From a bacterium (GTDB lineage: Bacteria; Electryoneota; RPQS01), in contig JAHJDG010000009.1 in the NCBI GenBank assembly GCA_018812265.1, positions 5,042 through 69,041 on the forward strand: a stretch of 64,000 nucleotides of DNA, written 5' to 3'. A model generated the notes under the pieces. That model was not told the DNA's origin. It searched no databases and saw only the letters and a program-made list of their open reading frames with translations. Position numbers and translations under genes: made by a program. Positions 24,388 through 55,603 of this stretch are shown piece by piece; positions within the stretch are counted from its first letter, which is position 1; each line of letters opens with the position of its first letter.

Positions 24388-27300
24388 ATGATGAGAAATG
24401 TTGCGTTGACTATGCTGATTCTGGGTGTTGCGATCGGATCTGTTGCCGCTCCGGTGCACACGACGTACATCTGGCACATGGAGCAGCCGATTTACTGGCC
24501 CGCCGCTTCCACGTGGCACGCGGGCTATCAGACGGCGTGGGAGTCCATCGTGCTGAAGGACGGCGGCGCGCCCCACCCGGAAAACGACGTGCGGGCGATT
24601 TTCTCGGTAGCCGACCGGGTGGCCGCCTATCAGTACCGACCGCGCGATGCGATACAGGCGATGACGGGAGCGGACGCGGGAGCGCAGGTGACGTACACTG
24701 GCGGATTGATCCGCAACGTGGCCAGTCTGGGAGCGGCCGGGCAGCTTGGATACACCTCCAACTGGAATCAACCGTTCATTACGGGACGCGGGTGGAATAC
24801 GAGCGGCGGCAGACCGCGACTGGAGATGACCATTATTCCCTATCACCACGCGCTGGCACCACTGGTGGATCGCGCCGTGTTGAAAAAGGAAATCCAGATC
24901 TATCAGCACGTGTATCCGCAAGTTTGGGGAAGCACGCCGCCCGCTTCGGTGGGATTCTTCCCGCCGGAGCTGGCCTCCAGCGAGCGAATCATTCCCGTGC
25001 TTGCCGAGTGCGGGATTGGTTGGTGTTTTGTCCCTTCCAATCATCTGTCACGCGCCTGCTCGAACTTTCCGTTGGTGTTGGGCACGGGCGGCGAAAACTG
25101 CGATCCGCCCAACCGGGCCGATCAGATCAATCCCTCGTCCGATCACTGGTTTTCGATGACGATCAGCCGGGGCTGCACGCCGACGGACGCCGTGCCGTTT
25201 TCGTTTCAACTCCACTGGGCGGAGCAGGTTGATCCGCAAACCGGAACTCCGGCACGGGTAATCGTCGTACCGGTGGCGATGGCGATGAGCTGGCAGGATG
25301 GATATCAAGTATACGGCGTGGGCGACGTCAACACGATTGCGCCGTGGAACGATCCGGCCCGTCCGATGCTGGTGGCCCTCGGACATGACGGCGACAACGC
25401 GTTCGGGGGCGGATACTCCTACTACATGGAGAGCGTGCCGGGCTTCACTTCGCAAGCGGTGGCACAGGGGTATGAGCCGACGACCGTTCCGGAGTATCTG
25501 GCCGATCATCCGGTGCCGACTTCGGACCTCGCGCACGTTGAAGACGGAGCCTGGATAAACGCCGACGGGGATTTCGGCAGTCCGGATTTCATCAACTGGA
25601 ACTGGCCGCCCTACAACGCGAGCGGACAATTCGACATTCCCAACGGCTGGGCGCTCGATATCCGAAACTGGGCGGTGATCACGGCGGCCACGAATCGCGT
25701 GGTGACGGCGGAAGCGGCGGCGGGCGGAAGCTCGATTGCGGCGATCCAGAATCCGACCACGACCTCGCCGGCGGCGATTGATCTGGCGTGGCACTTTCTG
25801 CTTGGATCGCTGAATTCGGGATATATGTATTACGGCTCGGCACTCGACATGGAGATGAAGCCGACGGTGGCCTGCAACATCGCGACGGACTGGGCGGATC
25901 AAGTTCTGCCGGGCGCGGGCGACCCGATTCCGCCGACGATCTGGATTTTGCAGCAGCATCCGCACAATCCGGGCGGAATCGGATTCGGATCGCTGTGGGG
26001 CTATCAGCAGACGGTGCAGCCGCGCGAGTTCTACGTATGGACGTTCATCTACGACGTTTCAGGGGTCTCTTCCGCAACGTTTTACTATCGTCTTGATGCG
26101 GACGGAATGAATCCGCTGTCATCCACGCAGAACGAGACGTTTGCGGGAGGCGGTGAAGTTTCCACGTGGCGGTCGAGGGAGATGAACCGTCGGGCATTCC
26201 CCGCCGGGAACGTATATAATGATCCGTCTATTGTGTTCGGGGAGATGCCCGACTACATCGCGGAGCAGTTCACCTACTATGTGAATGATGCCGAGATCGT
26301 GGACTCGGGCGGAGTTCTCGTAGACTACTACGTAGAAGCGATGGATTCGCTGGGGAACATCGCCCGCTCCGACATCTATCATACCTACGTGGATTCGGGG
26401 TCGGGAGGTTCGCCCGGCAATCGCGTGTGGTGGACACCCGAAGAGCCGGAAGGCGGGGAGAACGTCACGATCTATTATGATGCGGAGGCGGGGCCGCTGC
26501 CGTCGGGGACGAATCCAGTGTACATTCACATCGGGCACTCGGGATGGCAGGGGATTCTCAATCCCGATCCGCAGATGACCTACGACACCGGCGAAGAGGC
26601 TTGGCGATACACGTACTCCATTCCCTTAACGGCGACCGCGGTGGATTTCGTTTTCCAAGACGGCCTTGGTCATTGGGACAACAATAACGGCGCCGACTGG
26701 CACATCCCAACCACACCGGGCGGTTCCGGTTTCGTGATGGACGGCAGTCGCGATGGTGCCTCCGTGGTTGTGGCGGAGGCAGGCGGGATTACGCTCTGGG
26801 CAGGTTGGGACGGACGGGAATTGTACGTGGCTACGTCGCGCGTTCAGGGCACGGCCTACGATCAATTCATCTTCGTGGCTTCGCCGCCGGGAGCGATGAG
26901 ACCAGCACCGTGGGCGAAGTCAGGCCAAGTGGCGACATGGGCGGCCTATCTGGCGGAGGAAGGGAGCAACGGGTACAACGCTTGGTATGACACACAGGGG
27001 AGCGCTGTCAAAGCCGCCGGGAGCGTGCTGGAGGGAGCAGTGGACCTGACCGGAGAATTGGGGACGGTTCCGGGAGAGGTATGGCTGTGTTGCGGTAGAT
27101 ATCAGACGGCGGATGGAGGGATTTTGGCGGCTCAGGCACCGGCGGCGGTGGCTCCGGGCGGTCACATTGAGGCATCCGAATGGGTGCGATTGGTTCTGCA
27201 GCCGGACTCCCTGACAATTTCGGTGGTGGGACCGACAACCATTGAACTCCGCTGGTCTGCCGTCGTTGGTGCTACGGAATATGCCGTATTTCGGGCGGAT

Positions 27301-27405
27301 AGCCTATCCGGTAGTTTTGTTGAGGTTGGCCGAGTGTCATCCTTGTCATTTCAGGACTCGCCTGCCTCAGCAAGTGGAAAATATCAAGTAAGAGCTTGTT
27401 ATTGA
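24388..27405 (+). CDS. GH57/GH119-clan glycoside hydrolase-like enzyme (putative alpha-glucan-active) with an internal CBM25-like starch-binding domain and a C-terminal Fn3-like domain.
   Basis: GH57-like regions: YIWHMEQPIYW (region I-like), FFPPELASSE (WxxE-like nucleophile region) and LGHDGDNAFGGG (HDDGEKFG-like). CBM25-like ...VTIYYD...FVFQDGLGHWDNNNGADW. Signal peptide. Confidence 0.6.
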   Translation: MMRNVALTMLILGVAIGSVAAPVHTTYIWHMEQPIYWPAASTWHAGYQTAWESIVLKDGGAPHPENDVRAIFSVADRVAAYQYRPRDAIQAMTGADAGAQVTYTGGLIRNVASLGAAGQLGYTSNWNQPFITGRGWNTSGGRPRLEMTIIPYHHALAPLVDRAVLKKEIQIYQHVYPQVWGSTPPASVGFFPPELASSERIIPVLAECGIGWCFVPSNHLSRACSNFPLVLGTGGENCDPPNRADQINPSSDHWFSMTISRGCTPTDAVPFSFQLHWAEQVDPQTGTPARVIVVPVAMAMSWQDGYQVYGVGDVNTIAPWNDPARPMLVALGHDGDNAFGGGYSYYMESVPGFTSQAVAQGYEPTTVPEYLADHPVPTSDLAHVEDGAWINADGDFGSPDFINWNWPPYNASGQFDIPNGWALDIRNWAVITAATNRVVTAEAAAGGSSIAAIQNPTTTSPAAIDLAWHFLLGSLNSGYMYYGSALDMEMKPTVACNIATDWADQVLPGAGDPIPPTIWILQQHPHNPGGIGFGSLWGYQQTVQPREFYVWTFIYDVSGVSSATFYYRLDADGMNPLSSTQNETFAGGGEVSTWRSREMNRRAFPAGNVYNDPSIVFGEMPDYIAEQFTYYVNDAEIVDSGGVLVDYYVEAMDSLGNIARSDIYHTYVDSGSGGSPGNRVWWTPEEPEGGENVTIYYDAEAGPLPSGTNPVYIHIGHSGWQGILNPDPQMTYDTGEEAWRYTYSIPLTATAVDFVFQDGLGHWDNNNGADWHIPTTPGGSGFVMDGSRDGASVVVAEAGGITLWAGWDGRELYVATSRVQGTAYDQFIFVASPPGAMRPAPWAKSGQVATWAAYLAEEGSNGYNAWYDTQGSAVKAAGSVLEGAVDLTGELGTVPGEVWLCCGRYQTADGGILAAQAPAAVAPGGHIEASEWVRLVLQPDSLTISVVGPTTIELRWSAVVGATEYAVFRADSLSGSFVEVGRVSSLSFQDSPASASGKYQVRACY

Positions 27406-27567
27406 TAGGTTACCGGACGTAAAAGACGAGTAGATGGGCAAATTGAACGGCATTCCTGTGCAAGCCACGACGCAGGGGTTCTCCGGCTTGACCTCATGGC
27501 GAAACCGGCGGGTTCGTGCCATTGGGAAAGGGATTCAAACACAATTTGTTAGCGGGTCACTTTTCCA

Positions 27568-27595
27568 TTGACAAATTCTCAGGAATTGATAAGTT
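27568..27595 (+). promoter_or_regulatory. Candidate sigma-70-type promoter for the TonB-receptor operon.
   Basis: TTGACA-16nt-TAAGTT, about 60 nt upstream of 27658. Confidence 0.35.
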
Positions 27596-27657
27596 AATTC
27601 TATCGCAGTGCGTTCGTCGGCGGGTCTCGTTCCCGCCATGCGAAAGCAACCGATTTC

Positions 27658-30438
27658 TTGGAGTCATTGTCCATGTCCCACCGGAAATACGCCTCCTCTC
27701 TCATGGCTTTCATCATGAAGTGCATTTGGGTCGTCAGCCTGCTCGTGGCCGGCAGCGCCGTCTTTGCCGGAACGGTCGGTAAAATCGCCGGCCGGATTAC
27801 TGATGCACAAAGCGGTGATCCCGTAATCGGGGCAGCGGTGATGATCGTGGGAACGTCGCTGGGAGCAGCCACGGACTTGAAGGGCGATTTTTTCATTCTC
27901 AACGTTCCACCGGGCAAGGTAGATATCCGGGCCAGTGCTCTGGGGTATGGTACGCAGGTGATGAGCGGCATTCAAGTGATCTCGGACCAGACCGCCAATG
28001 TTGACTTCGCGTTCACCGAGGAAGCGCTGATGGGAGAAGAGGTCATCGTGTATGCCGAGCGCAAGCTGATCGAGATGGACCGGACGTTCGGAACGGCGAC
28101 GGTAGGCGCGCAGGACATTGGAGCACTGCCCGTCACCAACCTTAGTCAGGTTATTGAGATTCAAGCGGGCGTAGTGGACGGGCACTTCCGAGGCGGGCGG
28201 AGGAATGAAGTTCTTTACCTCGTGGACGGCTTGTCGGTGACGGACGCCTACGACAACTCGCAGGGCACGCAGGTGGACGACCAGATCGTCGAGGAACTGC
28301 AGGTGATTTCGGGCACATTCAACGCCGAGTACGGTCAGGCGATGTCGGGCGTGGTGAATATCGTGACCAAGGAAGGAGCGAGCGAGTACGGCGGATCGTT
28401 CAGCTCGGAATTCGGCGACTACCTTTCGAACCGTGACGACGTCTTTCTGAACATCGAAGACGTTTCGCCGCTGGCGATCCAGGACTATTCGGGCACGCTC
28501 TACGGACCGGTACCGCGTGTCGAAGGACTCTCGCTTTTCGTCAGTGGCCGTTATCAGGATGATAACGGCTGGATGTACGGGCAGAATCGTTGGAAGCCGA
28601 CGATTCAGATCGTGGAAGAAATCCTGACCACCGGCGACACCGATCCTTTCGGGGACAACAGCTATTCGCCGATGAACTACAATATTGAGAGTTGGGGTCA
28701 TGGGAAGCTCTCCTACGACGTCACCGGTAAGATCAAGCTGAATTATTCGTCGCTGTTCAGCGGCCGGACGTACAAGGACTACGCGCAAGACTGGAAGTTC
28801 GCTCCGTTCGCCACTCTTCGCCGCTACCGCACGGGGCGAACCAATTTTATCAAACTGAATCATGCCTTGACGGCGTCGGCTTTCTATGAGGTGGCCGCCG
28901 CCAACAGCTTTTCCGAATATCAGCATTATCTCTACGAAGACCCGTTCGATTCCCGCTACGTGGATCCGGCTTGGGCAGACATTGATCCGGGCTTCACGCT
29001 CAACGCCGCCGGCAATGATCTCTCGCGCTATCGGCGATGGACCAACACGAACGAAGTTCTTGGCCACATGACGTGGCAGGCCAACAAGCAGCATCTTTTC
29101 AAGTTCGGTTTCGACGTCAAGCTGCATGATCTCTTTTTCGAAGACATCAATCTGACGGACACCAGCCGGGCGGAGTTGTTCCGCATCAACGACGTCGGGA
29201 TTGACCCGTATTTCGAACCGATGATTTTGGACGTGTCATCTCCGGCGCACGACCGCTATCGCAACCATCCGTGGGAGTTTGCGCTATACGTACAGGACAA
29301 GTTTGAGGTGAAATCGCTCATCATCAACGCCGGGCTGCGGTTCGACTATTTCGAGCCGGACGGTCGCGTTCTGGCCGACGAGAAGGATCCCAACGTCTAC
29401 AATCCCCTGAGAACCGAACGAGCCGCCGATCCGCTGTCAACGCGACTCGGCTACTGGTATAAGGAGGCCACCGCCAAGTATCAGTTGTCGCCTCGGCTCG
29501 GCATCGCCTATCCGATGAGCGACCGCGGGGTGTTCCATTTTGCCTACGGTCATTTCGTGCAGCGGCCGACGTTCGAGAGGTTGTACGCCAATCCGGAGTA
29601 TGAAATGGAGTCGGGCGTGGGACTGAACACGGTGATGGGAAATCCGGACCTGAAGATGGAGGAGACCACGACGTATGAGTTTGGATTTCAGCAGGAAATC
29701 ACCGAGGACTTGGCCATCAACACCGCGCTCTTCTATCGCGATATCCGCAACCTGGTGGCAACGGATAAGATCGTCGAAACGTATTCCTCGGGAACGAAAT
29801 ATTCCCAATACGTGAACCGATCCTTCGGCGAGGTGAAGGGAATCACGCTCTCTTTCGATAAGCGCTACGCGAACAATTTCAGCTCGTTCGTGGATTATAC
29901 CTATCAAACGGCCAAGGGGGACGCTTCCGATCCGCAGTCGGCGTACAATGATCAGCGGGGGAACAATCCCCGCGAGCCGCAGCGGCAGCTGGTGCCGTTG
30001 GATTGGGATCGCCGCCACACGTTGAACGTCAGCCTTACCTATGCGACCGTCGGGCCGTCAGGCTGGGGAACCACGTTGCTTGGGAAGTACGGCAGCGGCC
30101 TGCCCTACACTCCCGAGGAGCAGGCGGGCGTGCGCACCGGTTTCGAGAATGACGGCCGCCGTCCGGATTTCTACAACCTTGATCTTTCCGTCTACAAGGA
30201 GTTTTCGCTCTCGTCGAAGTTGAAGCACAAGATCGTACTCATGCTGACCGTGCTGAACCTTCTTGACACGGACAACGAGGACAACGTATACCGCGATACG
30301 GGCCGGGCCGGCTACTCGGCGGAAGAGCGATACGCGGTGGAGGATCCTTCCTTCAACACATTGGAAGAATTCTACAACAATCCATCCCACTATTCGCGTC
30401 CGCGCATGGTGAAAGTGGGCGTCAAATACGAGTTCTGA
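27658..30438 (+). CDS. SusC-like TonB-dependent outer-membrane receptor (N-terminal carboxypeptidase-regulatory-like domain + plug + barrel).
   Basis: GRITDAQSGDPVIGAAVMIVGTSLGAATDLKGDFFIL (CarbopepD_reg). Plug EEVIVYAERK...LPVTNLSQVIEIQAGV. 926 aa. The start may be one of the internal Met (27673/27703/27715). Confidence 0.8.
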   Translation: MESLSMSHRKYASSLMAFIMKCIWVVSLLVAGSAVFAGTVGKIAGRITDAQSGDPVIGAAVMIVGTSLGAATDLKGDFFILNVPPGKVDIRASALGYGTQVMSGIQVISDQTANVDFAFTEEALMGEEVIVYAERKLIEMDRTFGTATVGAQDIGALPVTNLSQVIEIQAGVVDGHFRGGRRNEVLYLVDGLSVTDAYDNSQGTQVDDQIVEELQVISGTFNAEYGQAMSGVVNIVTKEGASEYGGSFSSEFGDYLSNRDDVFLNIEDVSPLAIQDYSGTLYGPVPRVEGLSLFVSGRYQDDNGWMYGQNRWKPTIQIVEEILTTGDTDPFGDNSYSPMNYNIESWGHGKLSYDVTGKIKLNYSSLFSGRTYKDYAQDWKFAPFATLRRYRTGRTNFIKLNHALTASAFYEVAAANSFSEYQHYLYEDPFDSRYVDPAWADIDPGFTLNAAGNDLSRYRRWTNTNEVLGHMTWQANKQHLFKFGFDVKLHDLFFEDINLTDTSRAELFRINDVGIDPYFEPMILDVSSPAHDRYRNHPWEFALYVQDKFEVKSLIINAGLRFDYFEPDGRVLADEKDPNVYNPLRTERAADPLSTRLGYWYKEATAKYQLSPRLGIAYPMSDRGVFHFAYGHFVQRPTFERLYANPEYEMESGVGLNTVMGNPDLKMEETTTYEFGFQQEITEDLAINTALFYRDIRNLVATDKIVETYSSGTKYSQYVNRSFGEVKGITLSFDKRYANNFSSFVDYTYQTAKGDASDPQSAYNDQRGNNPREPQRQLVPLDWDRRHTLNVSLTYATVGPSGWGTTLLGKYGSGLPYTPEEQAGVRTGFENDGRRPDFYNLDLSVYKEFSLSSKLKHKIVLMLTVLNLLDTDNEDNVYRDTGRAGYSAEERYAVEDPSFNTLEEFYNNPSHYSRPRMVKVGVKYEF

Positions 30439-30490
30439 CGATCTGATTTTCCACCCGTTCTCCGATTTCTAACGTTATCATCTCTACTCG

Positions 30491-33400
30491 ATGCACATGA
30501 GAAGAACCATCAGCATAACCGTCTTTGTGGTGATCTGTCTGACGCTTGTGGCCCTGGTCGGCTGGAGTCAAGGTCCGGAGGATTGGGAGTACTACAAGGG
30601 CAGTACGCTCAATCGCGCCAGAAATACGATGAGCGGAAACCTCGTTCGAACGGTGTTCTACAACTACGGTCTGACGGGGAATATCGGGGAGATCTCGGGC
30701 GAGTGGCCGATCGGTACGGGCAACGAATATGTGGGGGACGTCTCGCCGCTGGTGGGGATTGAATTTGTTCATCCTTCGGGCGACACTTTGCGGTCGGTTC
30801 TAACCTCCGACGGGCCGCGCGGGAATCCCGACGGACCTCCAGGCGGCGGAACCTTCTGGGGATTCGAACCTCTACCGGGTTTTGCGGCACTGCCCGCGAT
30901 CGGCGAGGATCCGAAGGTGGCAATGTCGAATCAGCCGCTCACCTGGCCGGACTTCTGGCCCGACAAATACGTCAATGATCCCAACGATCCGACCTGGCGC
31001 ATCCAGAGCGATCGGGGCTGGCGAGGATCGTGGAATGGGTATTTCGGCAAGAACGTGACGAACGCCGATCAAGAGACCTACTTCGTAACGGACGATCAGG
31101 CGGACATGGAGTGGTTCGAGCGATCCGACTCGCTGGGCAACGTCTATCGCTATTATCCCAATCCCGAAGATTCAGCTCGTCGGGGACTGGGGATTCGAGT
31201 GTCGGTGCGCGGTCTGCAGTGGGCGCATTTTCTGGCGCAAGACTGCATTTTCTGGCTCTATGATATTACCAACATCAGTTCCTACACCTACAACAAGGTC
31301 GCGTTCGGGATGGTAGTGGGAACGCTTTCGGGCGGGCGGCAGGATTCGCGGGACGATCTGGCCTATTTCGACCTCGGCTACGATATCACCTACAGTTGGG
31401 ACAGCGACGATCAGGGTTCTGCCGGCTGGATTCCGGTGCGTCCGGGCGAGATCAACGTCGGATACGTGGGCTATGCCTTTTTGGAATCACCCGGCAATCC
31501 CTATGACGGGATTGACAACGACGGCGACGTCCCCAGTCCAAGCTACGTATTGGAACCGTCCGATTTCCAGGCGCGATCCTACAACGTGGGAAATCGCTTG
31601 TTCCTGATCAATTACAGCACCTTCGAGCGGATTGACACGACTATGCCGACTCAGGGGATTTCGTTTACCGCCTACGGGCGCCAGTTTAACGTATATCCCG
31701 GCCAGATGTTGGAGGAAAACGGACGGAACAATATTGACGACAATCTGAACGGACTGATTGACGAACGGATCGAAGACCATCTCGGACTGACCTACAAGGA
31801 TTACTTCAACAATCGCGGACTCGATAATCTCCTGATTGACGAGGCGCGCGATGACGGCATTGACAACGACGGCGACTGGGATCCGCTGACCGACGACGTG
31901 GGAGCGGACGGCGTGCCGGCTACGGGAGACTACGGGGAGGGCGACGGCCTTCCGACGAACGGCGAGCCGCATTTCGACCGGACGGACGTGGACGAATCGG
32001 ATCAGATCGGACTGACGTCCTTCGAGTATTTCAGTCCTCCGGGAGCGGTTCGGATGCGGGACGACGCAGCGCTCTGGACCCGGATGGAACCGGGTCACTT
32101 CGACGTCACCCCCAACACTCCCGAAGACGGCGATTTCATCTACGGTTCGGGCTACTTCCCGCTTCGTCCGGGGCAGACGGAACGATTTTCGATGGCCTTG
32201 TTGTACGGCGAGGATTTCGCGGATCTGACCGAGAACAAAATCACCGTCCAGCAGGTTTACGACGAGAATTACAATTTCGCCCGCCCGCCCGAGAAGCCCA
32301 CCGCCTGGGTGGTACCGGGCGACGGCCGGGTAACCCTTTACTGGGATGACGTTGCCGAGTCGTCACTTGATCCCGTTTCCGGCTACGACTTTGAAGGGTA
32401 CAAGATCTACCGCGCCACCGATCCGAACTTCCGCGAAGTGTTTTCGATCACCGACGGATTCGGGCGGCGCGTATTCCACCGACCCATCGCCCAGTTCGAT
32501 CTGATCAACGAATATGAGGGTTTCTTCCCGATCATTCGCAACGCCGTGATCGTGTATCTTGGCGCTAATACGGGCCTCCAGCACTCGTGGACGGACACCA
32601 CGGTGGAGAACGGTCAAACGTATTACTACGCGGTGGTCGCCTACGACCACGGGGATATCGAGAAGGCGATTCTCCCGGCGGAGAACAATAAGACCATCGT
32701 GGTGGACGAGGCGGGCAACGTCACTCTGGACAAGAATACGCTCCTCGTCACTCCCCGCGCTCCGGCGGCCGGATATCAGGAACCGCGCCTTTCTTCGGTT
32801 GCACACGTCGGCGGTTTCTCGACCGGGATGATCGGTGTTGAGGCGTTGGATCCGCGGGAGATTCAAGACGACCGGCAATACGACTTCCGGTTCTCGGCGC
32901 AGCCATCAGACACGCCCAGTGTGCCGTCCCACGTCGAATATCACGTGCTTCGTCAGTCTGACGGACAGACGGACACGTTGATCGGCGGCAAGCTCCTCGT
33001 GCCGGAACCGAATCTTCTTCCACAGGCGGATCCATTCGCGGCCTACTATGACTCGCTGTTCAATCTTCCACCCGGCACGTATGATCCCGCCCTCTACTTT
33101 ACCGTGGCGGGAACACAGGTTTTTGACGGGCAGCGGGCGTACATGCTGCTCCCACGGGACGTCAAGCTGATCCCACAGGCCAGCGGATGGGCGGATACAA
33201 GCCGGCACTTGTACAGCTACCGCTTCACCAAGGCGTCCTTGTGGTATCAGGGCTATCAGATCGTGACCGGCGTAGCCTATCCCTCCGACTACCACGTGGA
33301 ATGGTATGAAGGCGTGGTGGATACATCCACGTACCTCAATTTCTACAACCTGTTGATTTATCCGGCGCGACCGGTGAACTTCCGCGTGAAGAACCTGAAC

Positions 33401-33976
33401 CGGAATGAGTATATCGAATTCGGATTCATCGAGCAGGCGGCCACAACGAATGGAGTCGTTGATCCGGGCGAGGTGATTCTCTTTCTCGAAAACGACACTC
33501 TGGTGACGTGGGCGCTTGAATTTCGCCGGACCGTGGGGGGAAGTGACAGCACGCGACCGGATAACGGCGATGACCTGCAGCTTCGATTGTATCAGCCGTA
33601 TTCCGACGCGGACGTCTATCGGTATACGACCCGCGCCGCGCGCGTGGATCCGGGGGCGGTGAATCTCGATCGCATCCGGGTGTACCCCAATCCCTACGTA
33701 GCGGTATCGGCGCAGGAGCCGGCCAACCGGTACGGCGAGGGCCGCGGCGAACGTCGGATTTCCTTCATCCATTTGCCGGATCGCTGCACCATTCGCATTT
33801 ATACGGTGCGCGGTGACCTTGTGGAAACCATTGAACACCTGACGACCATTGACGACGGAATGGAATCGTGGGACTTGCGGAGTCGCGACGGATTAAACGT
33901 TGCCTATGGAGTCTATCTCTACCACATTGATTCGCCCTACGGCGAGAAGATCGGACGCTTTGCGGTGATCAAATGA
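30491..33976 (+). CDS. Large secreted protein (1161 aa) with thrombospondin-type-3-like Ca-binding DNDGD repeats and a Por-type C-terminal domain. It sits where a SusD would be expected.
   Basis: Signal peptide. GIDNDGDVPSP and DDGIDNDGDWDPLTDDVGADGVPATGDYGEGDGLPTNGEPHFDRTDVDESDQ. C-terminus VYPNPY...TIRIYTVRGDLV...GVYLYHI...GRFAVIK. 52 nt downstream of the receptor. Confidence 0.6.
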   Translation: MHMRRTISITVFVVICLTLVALVGWSQGPEDWEYYKGSTLNRARNTMSGNLVRTVFYNYGLTGNIGEISGEWPIGTGNEYVGDVSPLVGIEFVHPSGDTLRSVLTSDGPRGNPDGPPGGGTFWGFEPLPGFAALPAIGEDPKVAMSNQPLTWPDFWPDKYVNDPNDPTWRIQSDRGWRGSWNGYFGKNVTNADQETYFVTDDQADMEWFERSDSLGNVYRYYPNPEDSARRGLGIRVSVRGLQWAHFLAQDCIFWLYDITNISSYTYNKVAFGMVVGTLSGGRQDSRDDLAYFDLGYDITYSWDSDDQGSAGWIPVRPGEINVGYVGYAFLESPGNPYDGIDNDGDVPSPSYVLEPSDFQARSYNVGNRLFLINYSTFERIDTTMPTQGISFTAYGRQFNVYPGQMLEENGRNNIDDNLNGLIDERIEDHLGLTYKDYFNNRGLDNLLIDEARDDGIDNDGDWDPLTDDVGADGVPATGDYGEGDGLPTNGEPHFDRTDVDESDQIGLTSFEYFSPPGAVRMRDDAALWTRMEPGHFDVTPNTPEDGDFIYGSGYFPLRPGQTERFSMALLYGEDFADLTENKITVQQVYDENYNFARPPEKPTAWVVPGDGRVTLYWDDVAESSLDPVSGYDFEGYKIYRATDPNFREVFSITDGFGRRVFHRPIAQFDLINEYEGFFPIIRNAVIVYLGANTGLQHSWTDTTVENGQTYYYAVVAYDHGDIEKAILPAENNKTIVVDEAGNVTLDKNTLLVTPRAPAAGYQEPRLSSVAHVGGFSTGMIGVEALDPREIQDDRQYDFRFSAQPSDTPSVPSHVEYHVLRQSDGQTDTLIGGKLLVPEPNLLPQADPFAAYYDSLFNLPPGTYDPALYFTVAGTQVFDGQRAYMLLPRDVKLIPQASGWADTSRHLYSYRFTKASLWYQGYQIVTGVAYPSDYHVEWYEGVVDTSTYLNFYNLLIYPARPVNFRVKNLNRNEYIEFGFIEQAATTNGVVDPGEVILFLENDTLVTWALEFRRTVGGSDSTRPDNGDDLQLRLYQPYSDADVYRYTTRAARVDPGAVNLDRIRVYPNPYVAVSAQEPANRYGEGRGERRISFIHLPDRCTIRIYTVRGDLVETIEHLTTIDDGMESWDLRSRDGLNVAYGVYLYHIDSPYGEKIGRFAVIK

Positions 33977-35001: not shown

Positions 35002-35067
35002 CTCAACTTTGGCGAACTGGAACAACTGAGAATCATCCATACACATTCAATCTCGGAGGTCGTCATC

Positions 35068-36576: not shown

Positions 36577-36696
36577 CTCACGAATTACTGTTTTCGCAGC
36601 TCTGACTTGGGAGGGGAGCGCATCCACCGGGCGCTCCCCTCCCGTATCACGGCCCGCATCCAGCCGAAGGGTCATGCTTTCATGAGGGATCAAACG

Positions 36697-49252: not shown

Positions 49253-49276
49253 CTTGTCCAAATCCTCCCGAAACCG

Positions 49277-50197: not shown

Positions 50198-53100
50198 ATG
50201 AATAGGTTGCTGAACACGTTGGCAGTGGCTCTCACGGTATTCCTGGCCGTGAAAGCCTCCTTTGCATTCGAGTGGCGTCTCAACGACTGGGTCATTAAGG
50301 ATGAAATCGGTGAGATCGAGGCGGGAGATTTCGATCTGTGTAACGGATTTTTCCGCGAAGACTCCGATCGAACCTACCTCAAGATCACGACCCGCAGTCC
50401 ACTCACTCAAGACGTTGACGTATGGGTCAGAACTACGGACAAACTGGGTCAGCAACTTTCGTTGCGGCGAGACGCGCCCTCGACGCGGGCGACTGTCAAC
50501 GCCTTCCGGGGCGTCTTTGAAATCGAGTGGATTCGACCGAGTGATTGGCAGGGTACGGCAACACTGTCCATTCAAACCGTTCGCAGCGGGACGATGGAGA
50601 TCGTTGATGAAGCCGCTGTGGACATGAACCCGCGTTCCTCGCTCGACAATGAGACGGGCAACTGCGCGTTTGTCCATCACGGGAATCAGGGACTCACTTA
50701 TACGGACGTTTTCCGGGGGAGCGGCGGAAGCCCGAACAACGGATTCGATGAGATTTTGGAATTGCACCAGAATCTCGCTACGCCGGGCAACTTCCACATG
50801 AGCGGAACATTGATTTCGGCGGCCGAGTGGTATGATCCCAGTTTCAATCAATGGCTGCGCGACGGAATCAGTCAAGGCTGGGCAGCGATGCTGACCTCGG
50901 TCTATGCTCAACACATCATGCCGTTTGTTCAAGACAACATGAACAACTGGGCGGTCAGCACCGAACAGGATTTGATCTCGACGATCTACGGATACGACGC
51001 CCGCGTCGCGTGGATTCCCGAGCGCGTGTGGCTGGCGAATGGAGTATATCCCGACGCCGGCATCGTGGATCCGTGGCTGGGCGACAACTGGACTCAGCAC
51101 GGTGTGGACGCAGTCATTCTCGATGACTGGCCGCACGTCAGCGGCAACAGCGACCGCAAGATTCACTGGATGAACAACGGTTCCGGAATCACACTGCGCG
51201 TCATTCCGATTGACGGCGAATTCACCGGCAACTGCCATTACAATCCGGGTGCGGCCATTGCGCATATTCAGGGAACGGGACGATACGGCATCGTGGTCTA
51301 CGGAACCGACTGGGAAGCTGCCGCGGAAATGGCCGACTTTTCCTGCCCCGATTGTCTCGAGAATTATTCGCAGGTCGTCACGTGGGTCCATGACAACTAC
51401 CCTGCCGTTGGCGCCTGGAAACTCGATGCCGCGCTTGCCAATTCCGACTTCAACGGTTGGGGAATCAACGTCGGTAACGGAACGTACGGACTCATCGGCG
51501 GCACCGACGGCTATGGCGGCAGCAACAACAGTTGGTACACGCACTGGGCCGGCACGGCATCGCACTCCGATTTCCATAATCCGGCGTGGAACTACGGCCA
51601 TGCCTGGTGGCAGACGTATCTGAAGGTTATGGGTTCGCCGAGCAACAATCTGTCGGAAACGGCCTGGTACGTGATGATGACCAACCTCCACGAGACCGGC
51701 TGGCACGATTACATGGGCGGGCCGATCAGCGGCTGGCAGCACCGCTATTCGAGTCACATCAAGAACGCCAACGTCTATGCCGAAGCCGCGCACTGGGCGG
51801 CGGGAGAGTACGCGATTCCGGTGAACGCGTACTTCGCCGATCCCGACAGCGACGGTGTTTCGGAACTGATGATCCACAACGATCGCGTGATGGCCGTCTT
51901 CGAGCCGACCGGCGGACGGGCCCAGTGGATTTTCGCCAAAACGCCGTCAAGCGACAACTACTCGATCGTCGGCAGCTGCAACACCTACTGGGCGGAGACC
52001 GAAGGCGACTACGACGAGTCGGGATCCAACAATCATCAGGCCGCCTTTGCCGAGGTGAGCCCGCACTACCGAAATGACACCTATGACATGTTCGTGGAGG
52101 AACTCACCGACACGACGGCGAAGATTCGGCTGGTTCACAATGAAGTAACTAAACGGATCTCCGTGAAGCTCGGCAATCCCTACTTCAAAGCCGAGTACGA
52201 AGTCGGATCTCAAACCTGCTATCTGCGGCACGGTTTCTCGCCCGATCTGCTCGATCTTATCTGGAGCGCGGACATGTATCGCATTTGGCCGCCCGACGCG
52301 GCGTACATGGGATTACGCAATCCGAACAGCGGCGCTACCGGAGCATGCATCCTCGCCAACGGCGGCGCGAATCATCAATTGGAATTCAGCGGAACGTTGC
52401 TGCGAGGAGACGAGTTGCGTGGGTATGACCAATTCGCGTTTCTGCTCTACACCGGACCGACCTCGGCTCCCGACGGATCGGGACGGATTGCCGAACTCGA
52501 GACCCTGAAGACGATGAACCTCGATCGCTACGGACCGAGACTCGACGCGCAGGCCATCTTCCTCAATGCGAGTACGGTGGAAGTATCGTTCAATGAGTCC
52601 GTGGAGCAAACCAGCGCCCAGAATATCTCACACTGGACCCTGCAAGGATTCTCCCACACCTATTCGGTAACGGCGGCGGTCCGGCAATCCGATTGGCGAC
52701 GCGTCCGGCTTACGATCAACCCGAGTCTTATCGGCGGCGATGCGGGTCAGATTGCGGCAAGCGACGTCTATGATCTGAATGGCAACGTTGTTGATCCAAA
52801 TTACGATACCGCGTCACTCATCGTTCCCACCGGACTCACGCCTCACACCATCGTCATTGACGGTGTCAAGGACTTCGATCGTGCCAACGAATGCCTGTTC
52901 GCAGGAACGGATACGCTGTTCCTGACGTGGGACATGTCCGCCTTGTACGTCGGCTATTTTCCCAAGGATCTTTCGACGGGCGATTTCTTCATTCACATTG
53001 ACGTCAACCAGCAGACCGGGATGGGAGCTCCCACCGGCAGTTGGGGACGGGAGAGTTTCGCCAATCCATTCCGCATCGAGTATCAACTCGCCATCGAAGG

Positions 53101-53656
53101 CGGCGTCGGCGGGATTCAATTGAATCGCTGGACGGGCAGCGCGTGGGAGTATCCGGGTCCGGGAACTCCACCCGCCACCAGCTACAACGGATGGTCGGGC
53201 AATCCATTTACCGAGGTACGCATCCCGTGGGACGCCATCGGCAATCCGTCCGGGATCGCACTGGCGGTCAGCATCACGCAAGAGGACAATCTCATTACCG
53301 ATCGGGTATTCCCGCCCTCCAATCCGACGGGCAACTCGATTACCATTTCCCAGATGTATCGTTTGTACCAACCGTACATCTCCGGCAACATGCCGTTGTC
53401 GGGCGTTCGGCCGAAGTACATTCTCAGCGGTGACCTCGGTACACCGGCCAATCTCGTGGCCTATCCGATCAGCGGACACGTGGGACTCAGGTGGTCGGCG
53501 GTTGTGGGAGCGGTTACCTATGTGATTCATCGCGCGGAATCCGCAGCCGGTCCCTTCAACGTGTTGGATGAAGTCTCGGCCACACAGTATGAGGACAACA
53601 GCGTAGCGGGAGGCCTGCGGTACTTCTATCGAGTGACCGCCAAATCGGGTATTTGA
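50198..53656 (+). CDS. Large secreted GH57/GH119-clan glycoside-hydrolase-like protein with a C-terminal Fn3-like domain.
   Basis: Start reset to MNRLLNTLAVALTVFLAVKASFA (ATG at 50198; the ORF track begins at an upstream TTG). RVAWIPERVW (GH57 region-III-like with Glu). C-terminal ...LRWSAVVGAVTYVIHRAESAAGPF...YFYRVTAKSGI, homologous to the C-terminus of 24388..27405. Confidence 0.55.
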   Translation: MNRLLNTLAVALTVFLAVKASFAFEWRLNDWVIKDEIGEIEAGDFDLCNGFFREDSDRTYLKITTRSPLTQDVDVWVRTTDKLGQQLSLRRDAPSTRATVNAFRGVFEIEWIRPSDWQGTATLSIQTVRSGTMEIVDEAAVDMNPRSSLDNETGNCAFVHHGNQGLTYTDVFRGSGGSPNNGFDEILELHQNLATPGNFHMSGTLISAAEWYDPSFNQWLRDGISQGWAAMLTSVYAQHIMPFVQDNMNNWAVSTEQDLISTIYGYDARVAWIPERVWLANGVYPDAGIVDPWLGDNWTQHGVDAVILDDWPHVSGNSDRKIHWMNNGSGITLRVIPIDGEFTGNCHYNPGAAIAHIQGTGRYGIVVYGTDWEAAAEMADFSCPDCLENYSQVVTWVHDNYPAVGAWKLDAALANSDFNGWGINVGNGTYGLIGGTDGYGGSNNSWYTHWAGTASHSDFHNPAWNYGHAWWQTYLKVMGSPSNNLSETAWYVMMTNLHETGWHDYMGGPISGWQHRYSSHIKNANVYAEAAHWAAGEYAIPVNAYFADPDSDGVSELMIHNDRVMAVFEPTGGRAQWIFAKTPSSDNYSIVGSCNTYWAETEGDYDESGSNNHQAAFAEVSPHYRNDTYDMFVEELTDTTAKIRLVHNEVTKRISVKLGNPYFKAEYEVGSQTCYLRHGFSPDLLDLIWSADMYRIWPPDAAYMGLRNPNSGATGACILANGGANHQLEFSGTLLRGDELRGYDQFAFLLYTGPTSAPDGSGRIAELETLKTMNLDRYGPRLDAQAIFLNASTVEVSFNESVEQTSAQNISHWTLQGFSHTYSVTAAVRQSDWRRVRLTINPSLIGGDAGQIAASDVYDLNGNVVDPNYDTASLIVPTGLTPHTIVIDGVKDFDRANECLFAGTDTLFLTWDMSALYVGYFPKDLSTGDFFIHIDVNQQTGMGAPTGSWGRESFANPFRIEYQLAIEGGVGGIQLNRWTGSAWEYPGPGTPPATSYNGWSGNPFTEVRIPWDAIGNPSGIALAVSITQEDNLITDRVFPPSNPTGNSITISQMYRLYQPYISGNMPLSGVRPKYILSGDLGTPANLVAYPISGHVGLRWSAVVGAVTYVIHRAESAAGPFNVLDEVSATQYEDNSVAGGLRYFYRVTAKSGI

Positions 53657-53737
53657 CAAACGGTTTCTCCGCAAACATTCGACGAAGATGATAGGGTAGA
53701 TCGGATCAGACACACAATCAACGGACAAGGAGCCAAC

Positions 53738-55603
53738 ATGAACAGAGCAATTCTTGTATGTGTGCTCGCCCTGCTTGTCGCAGGATATGCTGGGGCGGTT
53801 CCGTCCTTCACGCCCGTCGTGGACGGAATCAAGGACGTCGGCTGGGGCAGCGTACCGGATCACTCAACGACCACATTGCGCGAACCGGTTACGTTCAATC
53901 TCGACAGTGGCTTTTATGTCACGGACGACAGCGAGTTCATCTATTTCGGCTTCTGGGCCGACAACGATCCCTGGACCGATGCGATGAACCCGCATATCCA
54001 CATTCTGATGGACATCGGCAGCACGGCCGACGGCGGAACGTTTGCCGCGTGGGGAGCAAACAACGTTCTTTACGCCCACGCTTTCAAGCCGGAATATGAC
54101 ATCGTCACGCAGTGGGGTGACGGAGCGGCACCCTATACCAACGACATTCAGTTTACCGGATTGAATCGTTGGGTTACCGGAAGCTGGAATCAGATCATGG
54201 AGCTGACGATTGACGATGGCGGCGGCAGTCAATGGACGGAAATCGCCGTCCGCAAGGCGGATATCGGATCACCGGCCAACGGCGTGGTATTGAACCTCTC
54301 CATGTGGCTGCGTCCCGCGTGGAACAAGGCAGGTGGCAATTGCTGTCTGCCCGCGGATGAAGACTTCCCCAGCGATTGGGCAAACACGGCCGGCACATTC
54401 GATCAGCAGTTCGCCTATACGCTTCAGGCAGCGATCTCCGACACCGACCCGCCGGGGATTGACCACGTTCATCAGATTGACCGCACCGGCATCGAGATCG
54501 TGTTCGATGAGCCGATGGACACGACAACGTTTCTGGCCGGCAATTTCACTCCTACCGGTTGGACATTCACGGGCTTTCGCTATAAGACGTCCAACACCGT
54601 AGGAATTTCCGCGGCACCTCCGGGTTTCCAGATGGGCACGGTATATTCCGTCGTTCTGTCTTCCGCCATCGAGGATGTCGCCGGCAATTCCATGGATCCG
54701 GCCGACGACTCGACCTCGTGGACGGGTGTCGGCTATGCGGACGTCACCTTCCTATGCATAGATGCCTCTGCGACCCACGACACGATTCTGTTCAAGGGAT
54801 CGTTCAACTTCTACCACGAGTACGATGCTTTCTGGTCGGGTGGCAGCCATCTCATGTATGACGACGGCACTCACGGAGACGTAGCCACCGGTGATCATAC
54901 CTTCACTCGCATTTGGCCCATGGTTCCCAACGGAGGAACACCCAACTTCGAGTGGGGAGTTCGCGACGAGTTCGACAACTGGCTCGTGATCGGCCCGAAT
55001 CCCAGCTTCTCGTTGCCCGACACCAACGATATCACGGTGAGCTACACGATTCCCGACGTAACCCACAACCCGGTAGACGTCACCTTCACGGTGGACATGC
55101 AGTTCATTCCCGCGACGATTGACAGCATGATGCTCGCCGGAAGCTTCACGGATTGGGGAACCAATCCCGTGACGATGACGAATAACCTCGACGGCACCTA
55201 TTCCCGGACAGTAAACTTCCCGGCCGGATCGCAGCGAACGCATTACTTCAAGTTCATCCGTATGGAAGGCGGGAATCAAGACTGGGAAGGGATCAGCGAC
55301 CGCGAATTCGACCTCGACGACAGCCAGCCCACTCTGAATTTGGGACTGCTGTTCTTCAACAATTGGATTCCCGCGCCCTATGACGTGACCGCATACCCGG
55401 CTACCGGCGGCGTGGACATCCGTTGGAATGATAATTACCAGCGGGTCGAGTTCGAAGTCTACGGATCGAGTAACCTCTACTCGATTATCGAGCCAATCAA
55501 TCTGCTGGGCATCGTTCCGGCCGGTACGGGAAATCATTTCCTGGACACCGATGTGACGGCTACCAGCAAATTCTATCAAGTTCGCACGGTGTACACACCG
55601 TAG
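53738..55603 (+). CDS. Secreted surface protein with an SbsA-type Ig-like (Big_5) domain, a CBM20-like glucan-binding module and a C-terminal Fn3-like domain.
   Basis: Signal peptide MNRAILVCVLALLVAGYAGA. DPPGIDHVHQIDRTGIEIVFDEPMDTTTF (Big_5-like). VDVTFTVDMQFIPATIDSMMLAGSFTDWG (CBM20-like). C-terminal Fn3-like. Confidence 0.55.
   Translation: MNRAILVCVLALLVAGYAGAVPSFTPVVDGIKDVGWGSVPDHSTTTLREPVTFNLDSGFYVTDDSEFIYFGFWADNDPWTDAMNPHIHILMDIGSTADGGTFAAWGANNVLYAHAFKPEYDIVTQWGDGAAPYTNDIQFTGLNRWVTGSWNQIMELTIDDGGGSQWTEIAVRKADIGSPANGVVLNLSMWLRPAWNKAGGNCCLPADEDFPSDWANTAGTFDQQFAYTLQAAISDTDPPGIDHVHQIDRTGIEIVFDEPMDTTTFLAGNFTPTGWTFTGFRYKTSNTVGISAAPPGFQMGTVYSVVLSSAIEDVAGNSMDPADDSTSWTGVGYADVTFLCIDASATHDTILFKGSFNFYHEYDAFWSGGSHLMYDDGTHGDVATGDHTFTRIWPMVPNGGTPNFEWGVRDEFDNWLVIGPNPSFSLPDTNDITVSYTIPDVTHNPVDVTFTVDMQFIPATIDSMMLAGSFTDWGTNPVTMTNNLDGTYSRTVNFPAGSQRTHYFKFIRMEGGNQDWEGISDREFDLDDSQPTLNLGLLFFNNWIPAPYDVTAYPATGGVDIRWNDNYQRVEFEVYGSSNLYSIIEPINLLGIVPAGTGNHFLDTDVTATSKFYQVRTVYTP

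What the first reader, a model, noticed from the sequence alone, without database searches (positions are those of the whole stretch)
24388..55603. Shared extreme-C-terminal Fn3-like domain on three large secreted enzymes lacking the Por CTD: a possible alternative sorting or anchoring tag
Proteins 24388..27405, 50198..53656 and 53738..55603 all have signal peptides, lack the Por CTD, and end in a ~65-aa module with the pattern L(R/I)W(S/N)..VGA.(E/T)Y.(V/I).RA.S..G.F....VS...Y.D.........Y.YRV. The 24388 and 50198 tails are closely related. Co-localised cargo with a common C-terminal domain at the very end of the polypeptide resembles the way CTDs define secretion classes (T9SS type A/B, PEP-CTERM, LPXTG).
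Basis: inference. Interest (0 to 1): 0.55.

Follow-up and report, generated by a model that had tools for sequence, protein, structure and literature searches.

The report
Terminal Fn3 module missing its last strand
Three starch-degrading proteins of an uncultured KSB1/Calditrichota-like bacterium each end in a fibronectin-III-type domain cut off just before its last strand; related bacteria carry a secretion tag or a dockerin at that same spot, so it is probably a new docking or sorting module, though its function is untested.

Summary
The proteins at 24388-27405, 50198-53656 and 53738-55603 have Sec-type signal peptides and no Por/T9SS CTD. Each ends in a ~70-aa module homologous to the common bacterial Fn3 repeat. 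The parent family is ordinary: 117,948 database representatives, mostly in tandem internal arrays.

The tails, however, stop 2-5 residues after strand F, so the ~13-16 residues of strand G are missing. This holds in 80 of 83 members of the three protein families. It was seen in 0 of 124 random metagenomic Fn3 domains carrying the same F-strand motif.

AlphaFold models the p2 tail confidently as a six-stranded sandwich. Orthologues of the same enzymes in other phyla carry a T9SS type A CTD, a dockerin, or a complete Fn3 at this position. In one Cloacimonadota operon the whole gene set carries CTDs.

I read it as a lineage-specific C-terminal docking/anchoring module with an open beta-sheet edge. 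This is inferred, and no partner was found. Rivals are a non-canonical T9SS signal and a plain accessory domain. It is a new variant of a known kind, of moderate to high interest.

The parts
24388..27405 (+). p1: secreted GH57-like enzyme (1005 aa) with a CBM25/CBM53 starch-binding module and a truncated Fn3 tail
   Evidence: ORF and translation. Pfam: Glyco_hydro_57 E=1.4e-8; CBM53/CBM_25 just below cutoff. Orthologues found in 45 GTDB loci.
27190..27402 (+). p1 tail (residues 935-1005): Fn3 strands A-F, ending ...GKYQVRACY followed by the stop codon; no G strand
   Evidence: Generic Fn3 HMM aligns positions 4-76 of 101 to residues 935-1004, E=5e-11. The TGA stop is followed by a second in-frame stop (TAG), and no downstream frame encodes a G strand. 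Twelve orthologues end the same way.
50198..53656 (+). p2: secreted GH57-like enzyme (1152 aa) with a Big_5-like domain, a CBM9/DOMON-like domain and a truncated Fn3 tail
   Evidence: AlphaFold mean pLDDT 86.8. Best PDB fold match is the GH57 4-alpha-glucanotransferase 1k1x, E=2e-19.
53438..53653 (+). p2 tail (residues 1081-1152): six predicted strands, A 1087-91, B 1094-98, C 1107-13, C' 1121-26, E 1130-33, F 1143-49; the chain ends 3 residues later (KSGI followed by the stop codon)
   Evidence: AlphaFold DSSP, with pLDDT 86-90 over the tail. Generic Fn3 HMM positions 6-76 of 101, E=4e-16. 41 of 120 homologues end the same way.
53738..55603 (+). p3: secreted non-catalytic protein (621 aa) with a CBM9/DOMON-like N-domain shared with p2, Big_5, a CBM-like region and a truncated Fn3 tail
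   Evidence: Distant homologues carry CBM48, CBM20 and X25 domains plus a T9SS CTD.
55367..55600 (+). p3 tail (residues 544-621): a divergent copy of the same truncated Fn3, ending ...KFYQVRTVYTP followed by the stop codon
   Evidence: HMMs built without p3 match it at E=3e-4 to 6e-4 over HMM positions 5-76. Family-level hhalign against the p2 tails gives 98.9%, E=1.4e-17. 35 of 36 orthologues end 1-4 residues after the F strand; the 36th, P0298, ends within the tail.
27658..35001 (+). Context and candidate docking site: TonB-dependent receptor (27658-30438), a 1161-aa protein with a CTD (30491-33976) and a PorV/PorQ-family barrel (33973-35001)
   Evidence: Pfam and NCBIfam. In relatives L006, L008 and L022 a TonB-receptor gene lies divergently next to a p2-p3-p1 operon, and in L006 and L008 the 1161-aa gene is seen beside it. 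The partner role is speculative.
35068..40959 (+). Comparators in the same locus that do carry a T9SS type A CTD: a CBM20 protein (35068-36576) and a GH13 amylase (36607-40959)
   Evidence: Por_Secre_tail E=3e-7 and 1.8e-5. Further CTD proteins lie at 14223-15842(-), 18215-19804(+) and 55690-58407(-).

Best explanation
SHOWN: each of the three proteins ends in a module derived from the ordinary bacterial fibronectin type III domain that stops right after strand F. It is therefore a six-stranded (A-B-E / C'-C-F) sandwich. The seventh strand (G) is absent, which leaves the F-strand edge of one sheet open. This truncated form is conserved within each of three unrelated protein families, and it also occurs on other secreted proteins in related genomes. 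Orthologues from other phyla carry a T9SS type A CTD or a dockerin at the same position.

INFERRED: the module is a lineage-specific C-terminal protein-protein docking or anchoring element. It would tether or assemble the co-operonic starch-degrading trio (two GH57-like enzymes and a starch-binding protein) at the cell envelope. The likeliest site is near the TonB-dependent maltooligosaccharide importer. The likeliest mechanism is beta-sheet augmentation at the open F edge, either with a partner protein or with another tail. In role it would resemble a dockerin or the surface-attachment function of a T9SS CTD. The partner, the location, and the route across the outer membrane are all unknown.
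For: Homology:
- A 20-tail profile hits 117,948 representatives, the best being 9-44-copy tandem arrays.
- The consensus of those repeats matches Pfam fn3 at E=1.4e-13.
- The tails match solved bacterial Fn3 domains: 3mpc at E=4.6e-16, and 5g56.

Missing G strand:
- The tandem period is 88-92 aa against 74 positions in the tail profile, a 13-16 aa gap.
- In a 101-position HMM the F motif is at 69-75 and G at 83-92. In 80 of 83 terminal domains the alignment stops at 72-80, and in 79 of those 80 the chain ends 2-5 residues after position 75.
- AlphaFold models six strands at pLDDT 86-90.
- The stops are genuine (mixed TGA/TAG/TAA) and no G strand is encoded downstream.

Specificity: of 124 metagenomic Fn3 domains carrying YFYRVRA, 104 were internal, 20 were terminal with strand G and 0 were truncated.

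Modularity: the tail is the only similarity between p1 and p2. It also sits on a 262-aa and a 266-aa protein and on Delongbacteria proteins with NIDO/CBM56 and PPC domains. One of those has two complete internal Fn3 domains plus a truncated terminal one.

Positional swap:
- p1 orthologues: 12 truncated Fn3, 15 dockerin or dockerin-like, 4 T9SS CTD.
- p2 homologues: 41 truncated, 41 dockerin-like, 31 CTD-like.
- In Cloacimonadota L020 the p2 and p1 orthologues and two neighbouring genes (a CBM20 protein and a 372-aa protein) all carry CTDs.
- In L006 the three truncated-tail genes form one p2-p3-p1 operon beside the TonB receptor. L008 and L022 have the same gene order, but there only the p2 and p1 tails passed the scan threshold.
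Against: - No partner or donor strand was found. A G-strand-only HMM gives no signal in the locus proteins, although the motif is too short to be informative.
- The last residues are conserved within each family but differ between families: ..SGI/GGI, ..VAP/YTP, ..ARF/AEY/ACY, ..AAN. This argues against a single receptor that reads the C-terminus. It may instead mean each tail caps its own core and is stable alone.
- AlphaFold's confidence in the isolated six-strand form is compatible with a self-sufficient domain.
- Whether a strand from elsewhere in the same chain fills the G position could not be checked, because no coordinates were available.
- Co-occurrence with the TonB receptor may simply reflect phylogenetic relatedness.
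- Docking does not explain how the proteins would cross the outer membrane.
Confidence: 0.45

Rival explanations
1. The truncated Fn3 is a non-canonical T9SS export signal, a third kind of CTD. It would be recognised by the translocon or by a PorV/PorQ-family shuttle, so p1-p3 would be T9SS cargo despite lacking type A or type B CTDs.
For: - The organism clearly uses T9SS. The window has at least six Por_Secre_tail proteins and a PorV/PorQ-family gene.
- Orthologues of p1 and p2 in Cloacimonadota, Ignavibacteriales and Bacteroidales carry type A CTDs at the same position, so these enzymes are extracellular there.
- The tail has the size of a CTD (~70 aa), is an Ig-like sandwich, and sits at the extreme C-terminus after a Sec signal.
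- Truncated tails were seen only in MAGs labelled KSB1, Calditrichota, Cloacimonadota or Delongbacteria, or in unclassified or evidently mislabelled MAGs. They were seen in none of the 11 Planctomycetota orthologues, which carry dockerin-like ends.
- T9SS signals outside types A and B are accepted to exist, since most but not all CTDs fall into those two families (PMC12618676).
Against: - The tails do not match PF18962, PF13860, TIGR04183 or TIGR04131, even at E<=10.
- Type A CTDs have seven strands, and their last strands carry the conserved motifs (PMC12618676). Here the last strand is exactly what is missing.
- No PorP/SprF-like shuttle gene lies next to p1, p2 or p3.
- The C-terminal residues are not shared between the three families.
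- The dockerin alternative in orthologues points to anchoring rather than to an export signal.
Confidence: 0.2
2. It is an ordinary accessory Fn3 domain that happens to be last in the chain, serving for example as a stabilising or glycan-contacting module or a homodimerisation surface. It tolerates loss of strand G and has no sorting or anchoring role. p1-p3 would then be periplasmic, or exported by an unrelated route.
For: - The parent family is the most common bacterial spacer-type domain and is mostly internal.
- Solved relatives are structural Fn3 modules of Clostridium thermocellum CAZymes.
- AlphaFold folds the six-strand form confidently on its own.
- The short, family-specific end residues could be self-capping.
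- Some p1 orthologues (L015, L039) end in a complete Fn3, so strand G comes and goes within the family.
- No machinery or partner was identified.
Against: - A spacer has nothing to space at a chain end.
- The truncation point is identical in three unrelated families and is conserved down to roughly 45% body identity. It was absent from 124 random Fn3 domains.
- The module is replaced as a unit by two known sorting/anchoring modules in orthologues, and across a whole operon in L020.
- p3 looks like a surface starch-binding protein, and the orthologues are T9SS-exported, which argues against a periplasmic location.
Confidence: 0.3
3. The truncation is an artefact: a mis-called stop, a frameshift, a contig end or a pseudogene.
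For: Some p1 orthologues in MAGs are split by in-frame stops or frameshifts (L002, L003, L040). Metagenomic gene calls are often partial.
Against: - About 80 independent orthologues from many assemblies stop at the same structural position, using all three stop codons.
- The downstream DNA encodes no G strand in any frame.
- p3 is followed by a GC-rich hairpin that looks like a terminator.
- The next gene starts 81 nt after the p2 stop.
Confidence: 0.01

Closest known systems
Bacterial fibronectin type III domain (Pfam PF00041; e.g. PDB 3mpc, and the Fn3 of C. thermocellum CtXyl5A, 5g56)
   Same: Clear sequence homology: profile E=4.6e-16 to 3mpc, and 97.8-99.5% hhalign probability to the tandem-repeat consensus. 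The B-strand Trp and the F-strand Tyr motif are conserved. Strand order A-B-C-C'-E-F is the same in the AlphaFold model.
   Different: Strand G is absent, so the module has ~70 rather than ~90 residues. It is always the last element of the chain and is never found in tandem. The window tails on their own do not reach any Pfam model.
T9SS type A C-terminal sorting domain (TIGR04183 / PF18962 / FlgD_ig-type CTD)
   Same: Similar size, an Ig-like beta-sandwich, and the extreme C-terminus of Sec-exported multidomain CAZymes. It occupies the identical position in orthologues of p1 and p2. It coexists in the same locus and organism.
   Different: No sequence match. Six strands instead of seven. The conserved terminal-strand motifs of type A CTDs are absent. 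No evidence for PorV binding or PorU cleavage.
Dockerin-cohesin anchoring of glycoside hydrolases (cellulosome/amylosome logic; Pfam PF00404)
   Same: A small C-terminal, non-catalytic module appended to several enzymes of one pathway. Dockerin or dockerin-like modules replace the tail in Marinimicrobia, Planctomycetota and Bacteroidales orthologues.
   Different: The fold is unrelated: a Ca-binding helical dockerin versus a beta-sandwich. No cohesin-like partner or scaffold was identified here.
Incomplete Ig-like folds completed by a donor strand (chaperone-usher pilins; type V pilins of Bacteroidota)
   Same: An Ig-type sandwich that lacks its C-terminal G strand and therefore has an open edge or groove. 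This is the structural premise of donor-strand complementation.
   Different: No donor strand, chaperone or usher was found. The module sits at the end of large enzymes rather than being a pilin subunit. The resemblance is structural only and is a lead, not a finding.

Membership tests
Fibronectin type III domain (PF00041-type bacterial Fn3) | Significant sequence similarity to family profiles | tested here: met
   The tail profile retrieves Fn3 tandem arrays whose consensus hits PF00041 at E=1.4e-13. hhalign to that repeat gives 97.8-99.5%. PDB Fn3 3mpc matches at E=4.6e-16. Caveat: single window tails give no Pfam hit, even at E<=10.
Fibronectin type III domain (PF00041-type bacterial Fn3) | Seven-stranded sandwich A-B-E / C'-C-F-G | tested here: not met
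   The alignment to a 101-position Fn3 HMM stops at positions 72-80, whereas G occupies 83-92, in 80 of 83 family members. The chain ends 2-5 residues after position 75 in 79 of those 80. The AlphaFold model has six strands and no G.
Fibronectin type III domain (PF00041-type bacterial Fn3) | Conserved B-strand Trp and F-strand Tyr motif | tested here: met
   W21 and Y66 are invariant in the 20-tail alignment.
T9SS type A CTD (TIGR04183 / PF18962) | Match to the family models | tested here: not met
   No hit on the full proteins at E<=0.1 (Pfam) or E<=0.01 (NCBIfam). No hit on the tails alone at E<=10.
T9SS type A CTD (TIGR04183 / PF18962) | Extreme C-terminal position on a protein with a Sec signal peptide, in a T9SS-bearing organism | tested here: met
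   Position and signal peptides are read directly from the sequence. The window has at least six PF18962 proteins and a PorV/PorQ-family gene. T9SS core genes themselves are not in the window.
T9SS type A CTD (TIGR04183 / PF18962) | Seven antiparallel strands in an Ig-like sandwich (PMC12618676) | tested here: not met
   Six strands are predicted.
T9SS type A CTD (TIGR04183 / PF18962) | T9SS/PorV-dependent export and removal by PorU | not testable with these tools
   Requires genetics or proteomics in a cultured relative.
T9SS type B CTD (TIGR04131) | Match to the model, and a cognate PorP/SprF-like gene next to the cargo gene (PMC12618676) | tested here: not met
   No NCBIfam hit. The genes downstream of p1, p2 and p3 are a TonB receptor, p3 and a convergent GH31 respectively.
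Dockerin (PF00404) | Duplicated Ca-binding F-hand motif | tested here: not met
   No Dockerin_1 or EF-hand hit on the tails. By contrast the Marinimicrobia p1 orthologue tail hits Dockerin_1 at E=2.5e-9.
Donor-strand-complemented Ig folds (chaperone-usher / type V pilins) | Ig-like fold lacking its C-terminal strand | tested here: met
Donor-strand-complemented Ig folds (chaperone-usher / type V pilins) | An identifiable donor strand (N-terminal extension or chaperone strand) | tested here: inconclusive
   A G-strand-only HMM gives only negative scores on the locus proteins, but the motif carries too little information. The mature N-termini of p1-p3 are part of folded domains.
Donor-strand-complemented Ig folds (chaperone-usher / type V pilins) | Chaperone and usher, or pilin-processing genes, nearby | tested here: not met
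   None among the 35 window ORFs scanned against Pfam and/or NCBIfam. A few ORFs were not scanned (9629-10522 and 60042-63776).

The most novel reading that the evidence does not exclude
The G-less terminal Fn3 is an acceptor module whose missing strand is supplied in trans by an outer-membrane or surface partner, or by a T9SS shuttle. This would be donor-strand complementation used to sort or anchor enzymes rather than to build pili. It would define a third class of C-terminal tag in the uncultured KSB1-, Calditrichota-, Cloacimonadota- and Delongbacteria-labelled lineages sampled here, one that is interchangeable with T9SS CTDs and dockerins.
Probability: 0.2. Interest if true: 0.85.

Novelty: new variant of a known kind. 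Interest (0 to 1): 0.6.

Why it matters
- Finding cargo. Cell-surface and secreted CAZymes of the large uncultured candidate phyla (KSB1, Calditrichota, Cloacimonadota and others) are identified almost entirely by their T9SS CTDs. A second, unannotated C-terminal module on core starch-degrading proteins would mean that current secretome and polysaccharide-utilisation predictions for these phyla miss a class of cargo.
- Mechanism. A conserved Ig-type fold with a deliberately open edge, at the end of enzymes, would be a new way of building enzyme complexes or anchoring them. It would sit alongside cohesin-dockerin pairs, CTD/A-LPS attachment and lipoprotein-based Sus 'utilisomes'.
- Annotation. 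The module is invisible to Pfam and NCBIfam, so a dedicated HMM that requires termination after strand F would be immediately useful.
- Testability. The natural three-way swap (CTD, dockerin, truncated Fn3) on orthologous enzymes gives a ready-made experimental design.

Tried and rejected
1. Word-indexed homologue search with the three-tail alignment found nothing, not even the identical database protein. The index is unsuited to 75-aa queries.
2. Single-sequence AlphaFold of the p2 tail failed (pLDDT 40) and was discarded.
The first DNA pattern had too few plain bases.
4. Foldseek on the full-length p2 model only identified the GH57 body. Because no coordinates are returned, I could not check whether another part of the chain fills the G position.
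5. A G-strand-only HMM searched against the locus proteins gave only negative scores. This is uninformative.
6. Programmed readthrough or a frameshift encoding strand G is rejected. Stop codons are mixed and no frame downstream encodes a G strand.
7. Whole-gene paralogy as the source of the shared tail is rejected for p1 vs p2, where only the tail is similar. p2 and p3 do share further weak domain similarity.
8. Phylogenetic profiling of neighbours: the TonB receptor and the 1161-aa protein co-occur only with truncated-tail loci, but those are also the closest relatives, so this does not discriminate.
9. The Limisphaerales orthologue's '...YYRIQLLPQ' end aligns in register with the tails but not significantly, at 10-18% probability.
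10. Three literature searches found no description of a G-less terminal Fn3 tag.

Full report
**What is in the window**

The region is a large alpha-glucan (starch/glycogen) utilisation locus in an uncultured bacterium. Database proteins identical to p2 and p3 are annotated only as 'bacterium'. The nearest named relatives, at 62-75% identity, are candidate division KSB1 and Calditrichota MAGs.

Gene content, in order:

| Coordinates | Product |
|---|---|
| 18215-19804 | esterase + CBM48 + Por CTD |
| 19900-22362 | GH31 |
| 22601-24202 | sodium:solute symporter |
| 24388-27405 | p1: GH57-like + CBM25/53 |
| 27658-30438 | TonB-dependent receptor |
| 30491-33976 | 1161-aa protein with a CTD |
| 33973-35001 | PorV/PorQ-family barrel |
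| 35068-36576 | CBM20 protein + CTD |
| 36607-40959 | GH13 amylase + CTD |
| 40956-43745 | GDE_C / glucodextranase-C protein |
| 43772-44842 | MalK |
| 44688-47141 | GH57 + CBM20 |
| 47104-50095 | MalEFG |
| 50198-53656 | p2: GH57-like |
| 53738-55603 | p3: Big_5, no catalytic domain |
| 55690-58407 (-) | GH31 + CTD |
| 58438-60006 (-) | GH13 |

**Checking the observation**

The three ORFs are as described.
- All three begin with Sec-type signal peptides and have no lipobox. This is by inspection only.
- None matches Por_Secre_tail or the NCBIfam T9SS type A/B models.
- An HMM of the three tails finds only those three sites in the six-frame translation of the window.
- The tail is the only significant similarity between p1 and p2: 39% identity, E=1e-7.
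- p3's tail is divergent. HMMs that exclude it still align it end to end at E~3e-4.
- At family level the tails are unambiguously homologous: hhalign 98.4-99.4%, E from 8e-15 to 8e-22.

**What the module is**

An exhaustive HMMER search with a 20-tail profile found 117,948 representative proteins. The best hits are giant proteins with 9-44 tandem copies. The consensus of those repeats is a textbook bacterial Fn3, matching PF00041 at E=1.4e-13. The tails also match solved Fn3 domains: 3mpc at E=4.6e-16, and 5g56. The fold family is therefore ordinary, and the parent family is mostly internal.

In tandem arrays the repeat period is 88-92 residues, yet the tail profile covers only 74 positions. 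Each complete repeat has a further 13-16 residues, with consensus ..AAGES-AASNEVSATT. These residues are strand G.

I built a 101-position HMM from 400 complete repeats. The F motif occupies positions 69-75 and strand G positions 83-92.
- In 80 of 83 terminal domains in the p1, p2 and p3 families the alignment stops at positions 72-80.
- In 79 of those 80 the polypeptide ends 2-5 residues after position 75.

AlphaFold2 on full-length p2, with a 72-sequence alignment, gave mean pLDDT 86.8. It models residues 1087-1149 at pLDDT 86-90 as exactly six strands (A, B, C, C', E, F), and the chain ends three residues later.

The stop codons are genuine. TGA, TAG and TAA are all used, no frame downstream encodes a G strand, and p3 is followed by a GC-rich hairpin.

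**Is the truncation more than chance?**

I scanned metagenome contigs for DNA encoding the F-strand motif YFYRVRA and kept the matches that lie inside an Fn3 domain. Of 124 evaluable domains:
- 104 were internal;
- 20 were terminal with 17-35 further residues, meaning strand G was present;
- none stopped within 8 residues.

Among the 150 best multi-repeat proteins, only 4 end within 10 residues of the profile end, while about 40 end with a complete domain.

One Delongbacteria protein (L046 1308-6677) provides an internal control. It has two complete internal Fn3 domains and a truncated terminal one.

**Conservation and modularity**

- p2: 41 of 120 homologues end in the truncated tail, down to about 45% body identity.
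- p3: 35 of 36 orthologues do; the 36th, P0298, ends within the tail.
- p1: 12 of 38 orthologues with a complete 3' end do.
- Other bodies also carry it: a 262-aa and a 266-aa protein in L005 and L022, and Delongbacteria proteins with NIDO/CBM56 and PPC domains.
- In L006 the three truncated-tail genes form one p2-p3-p1 operon, divergent from the TonB receptor. L008 and L022 have the same gene order, and in L005 p3- and p1-type genes are contiguous and preceded by a contig-truncated p2-like gene. In L008 and L022 the p3-type tail did not pass the scan threshold. In the window the trio has been split.

**The positional swap**

The same enzyme bodies end differently in other lineages.

| Family | Truncated Fn3 | Dockerin or dockerin-like | T9SS type A CTD | Other |
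|---|---|---|---|---|
| p1 orthologues | 12 | 15 | 4 | complete Fn3 in L015, L039 (+VGEFDRxL) and probably L011 |
| p2 homologues | 41 | 41 | 31 | 7 partial or other |

- For p1, Dockerin_1 scores E=2.5e-9 in the Marinimicrobia orthologue. Weaker dockerin-like ends occur in Planctomycetota.
- For p1, the CTD forms occur in Cloacimonadota L020, Ignavibacteriales L042, and the unclassified MAGs L018 and L045.
- A complete Fn3 followed by a conserved VGEFDRxL motif occurs on several proteins in the Zixibacteria and Gemmatimonadota loci.
- In Cloacimonadota L020 the p2 orthologue, a CBM20 protein, the p1 orthologue and a fourth gene all carry Por_Secre_tail/FlgD_ig CTDs.

An operon-wide exchange of C-terminal module between lineages is the pattern expected for sorting or anchoring tags. 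It is not expected for a spacer.

**How it most likely works**

Shown: the module is a conserved, strictly terminal, six-stranded Fn3 derivative with an exposed F-strand edge. It sits where orthologues carry known sorting or anchoring modules.

Inferred: it is a docking or anchoring element. It would hold the two GH57-like enzymes and the starch-binding protein together, or on a common envelope partner near the TonB-dependent importer, by edge-strand (beta-augmentation) contacts. I give this 0.45.

Points against this reading:
- No partner was found.
- The final residues are family-specific rather than shared.
- AlphaFold is content with the isolated six-strand form.
- Docking does not explain passage across the outer membrane.

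Rivals:
- A non-canonical T9SS signal (0.2). T9SS is active in this organism and the orthologues are T9SS cargo. Against it, the tail matches no CTD model, and the last strands that type A CTDs depend on are the part that is missing (PMC12618676).
- A plain accessory domain with no sorting role (0.3).
- An artefact (0.01).

**Comparison with known systems, and novelty**

By homology the module belongs to the Fn3 superfamily, but it fails the seven-strand criterion. It is not a member of T9SS type A or B CTDs, or of dockerins, because the defining models were tested and not met. It shares the 'missing G strand' premise of chaperone-usher and type V pilins, but no donor strand, chaperone or usher was found.

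Neither Pfam nor NCBIfam recognises it. Three full-text literature searches found no description of such a tag.

I rate it a new variant of a known kind, with interest 0.6. The structural and evolutionary pattern is solid and unexpected. The function is unproven.

Noticed in passing
window 27658-35001: A TonB-dependent receptor is followed by a 1161-aa protein with a PorZ-like/type A CTD end. That gene overlaps a PorV/PorQ-family barrel gene by 4 nt (NF033709, E=5e-62). The full trio is seen in L040. L001, L006 and L008 show the receptor next to the 1161-aa gene before the contig ends. It looks like a SusC/D-like unit in which the surface partner is anchored through T9SS parts, as a cargo plus its cognate shuttle.
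   Followed up: partly
L031 2781-3332 and 3429-7073; L039 1761-5657 and 8149-10941; protein P0311: In Zixibacteria and Gemmatimonadota loci at least four different proteins end in a complete Fn3 followed by a conserved 'VGEFD(R/K)xL' motif and about 5 more residues. This may be another lineage-specific C-terminal tag. NCBIfam and Pfam have no model for it.
   Followed up: partly
proteins P0041-P0120 (Bacteroidales p2 homologues): 41 of 120 p2 homologues end in a dockerin-like Ca-binding repeat, 'GDANADG...DKN..W.PN.G..SQVPE', that no Pfam model recognises.
   Followed up: partly
L028 516-5453 and 5457-8618: In a Cloacimonadota MAG a 1646-aa C25 peptidase (gingipain/PorU-like) with a T9SS CTD lies directly upstream of the p1 orthologue, which ends in a truncated Fn3.
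   Followed up: no
L033 5159-8347: The Limisphaerales (Verrucomicrobiota) p1 orthologue ends in a ~70-aa module, '...PERYYRIQLLPQ' followed by the stop codon, that also stops right after a YYRI strand. It aligns in register with the tails but not significantly, at 10-18% hhalign probability. It may be an analogous module outside T9SS-bearing phyla.
   Followed up: partly
window 2010-12230 (- strand): Type IV pilus-type genes are present: PilC-like T2SSF (7258-8460), PilT-like (8484-9599) and PilB-like with an MshEN domain (10536-12230). Two NtrC-type response regulators and a PAS histidine kinase lie at 2010-7248.
   Followed up: no
window 43772-44842 and 44688-47141: The MalK ORF and the GH57+CBM20 ORF overlap by 155 nt as listed. 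The true start of the GH57 gene is probably further downstream.
   Followed up: no
L002 9929-12946; L003 1610-4783; L040 9986-13067: p1 orthologues in three MAGs are split by an in-frame stop or a frameshift. These could be pseudogenes or assembly errors. Several of these MAGs are labelled 'Alphaproteobacteria' or 'Puniceispirillum' although their genes are KSB1-like, which suggests mislabelled bins.
   Followed up: no
window ~55631-55656: A GC-rich inverted repeat (GCGGGCCGTCC-GGAA-GGACGGCCCGC) lies between the convergent p3 and GH31 genes and is probably a bidirectional terminator. This was read by eye.
   Followed up: no
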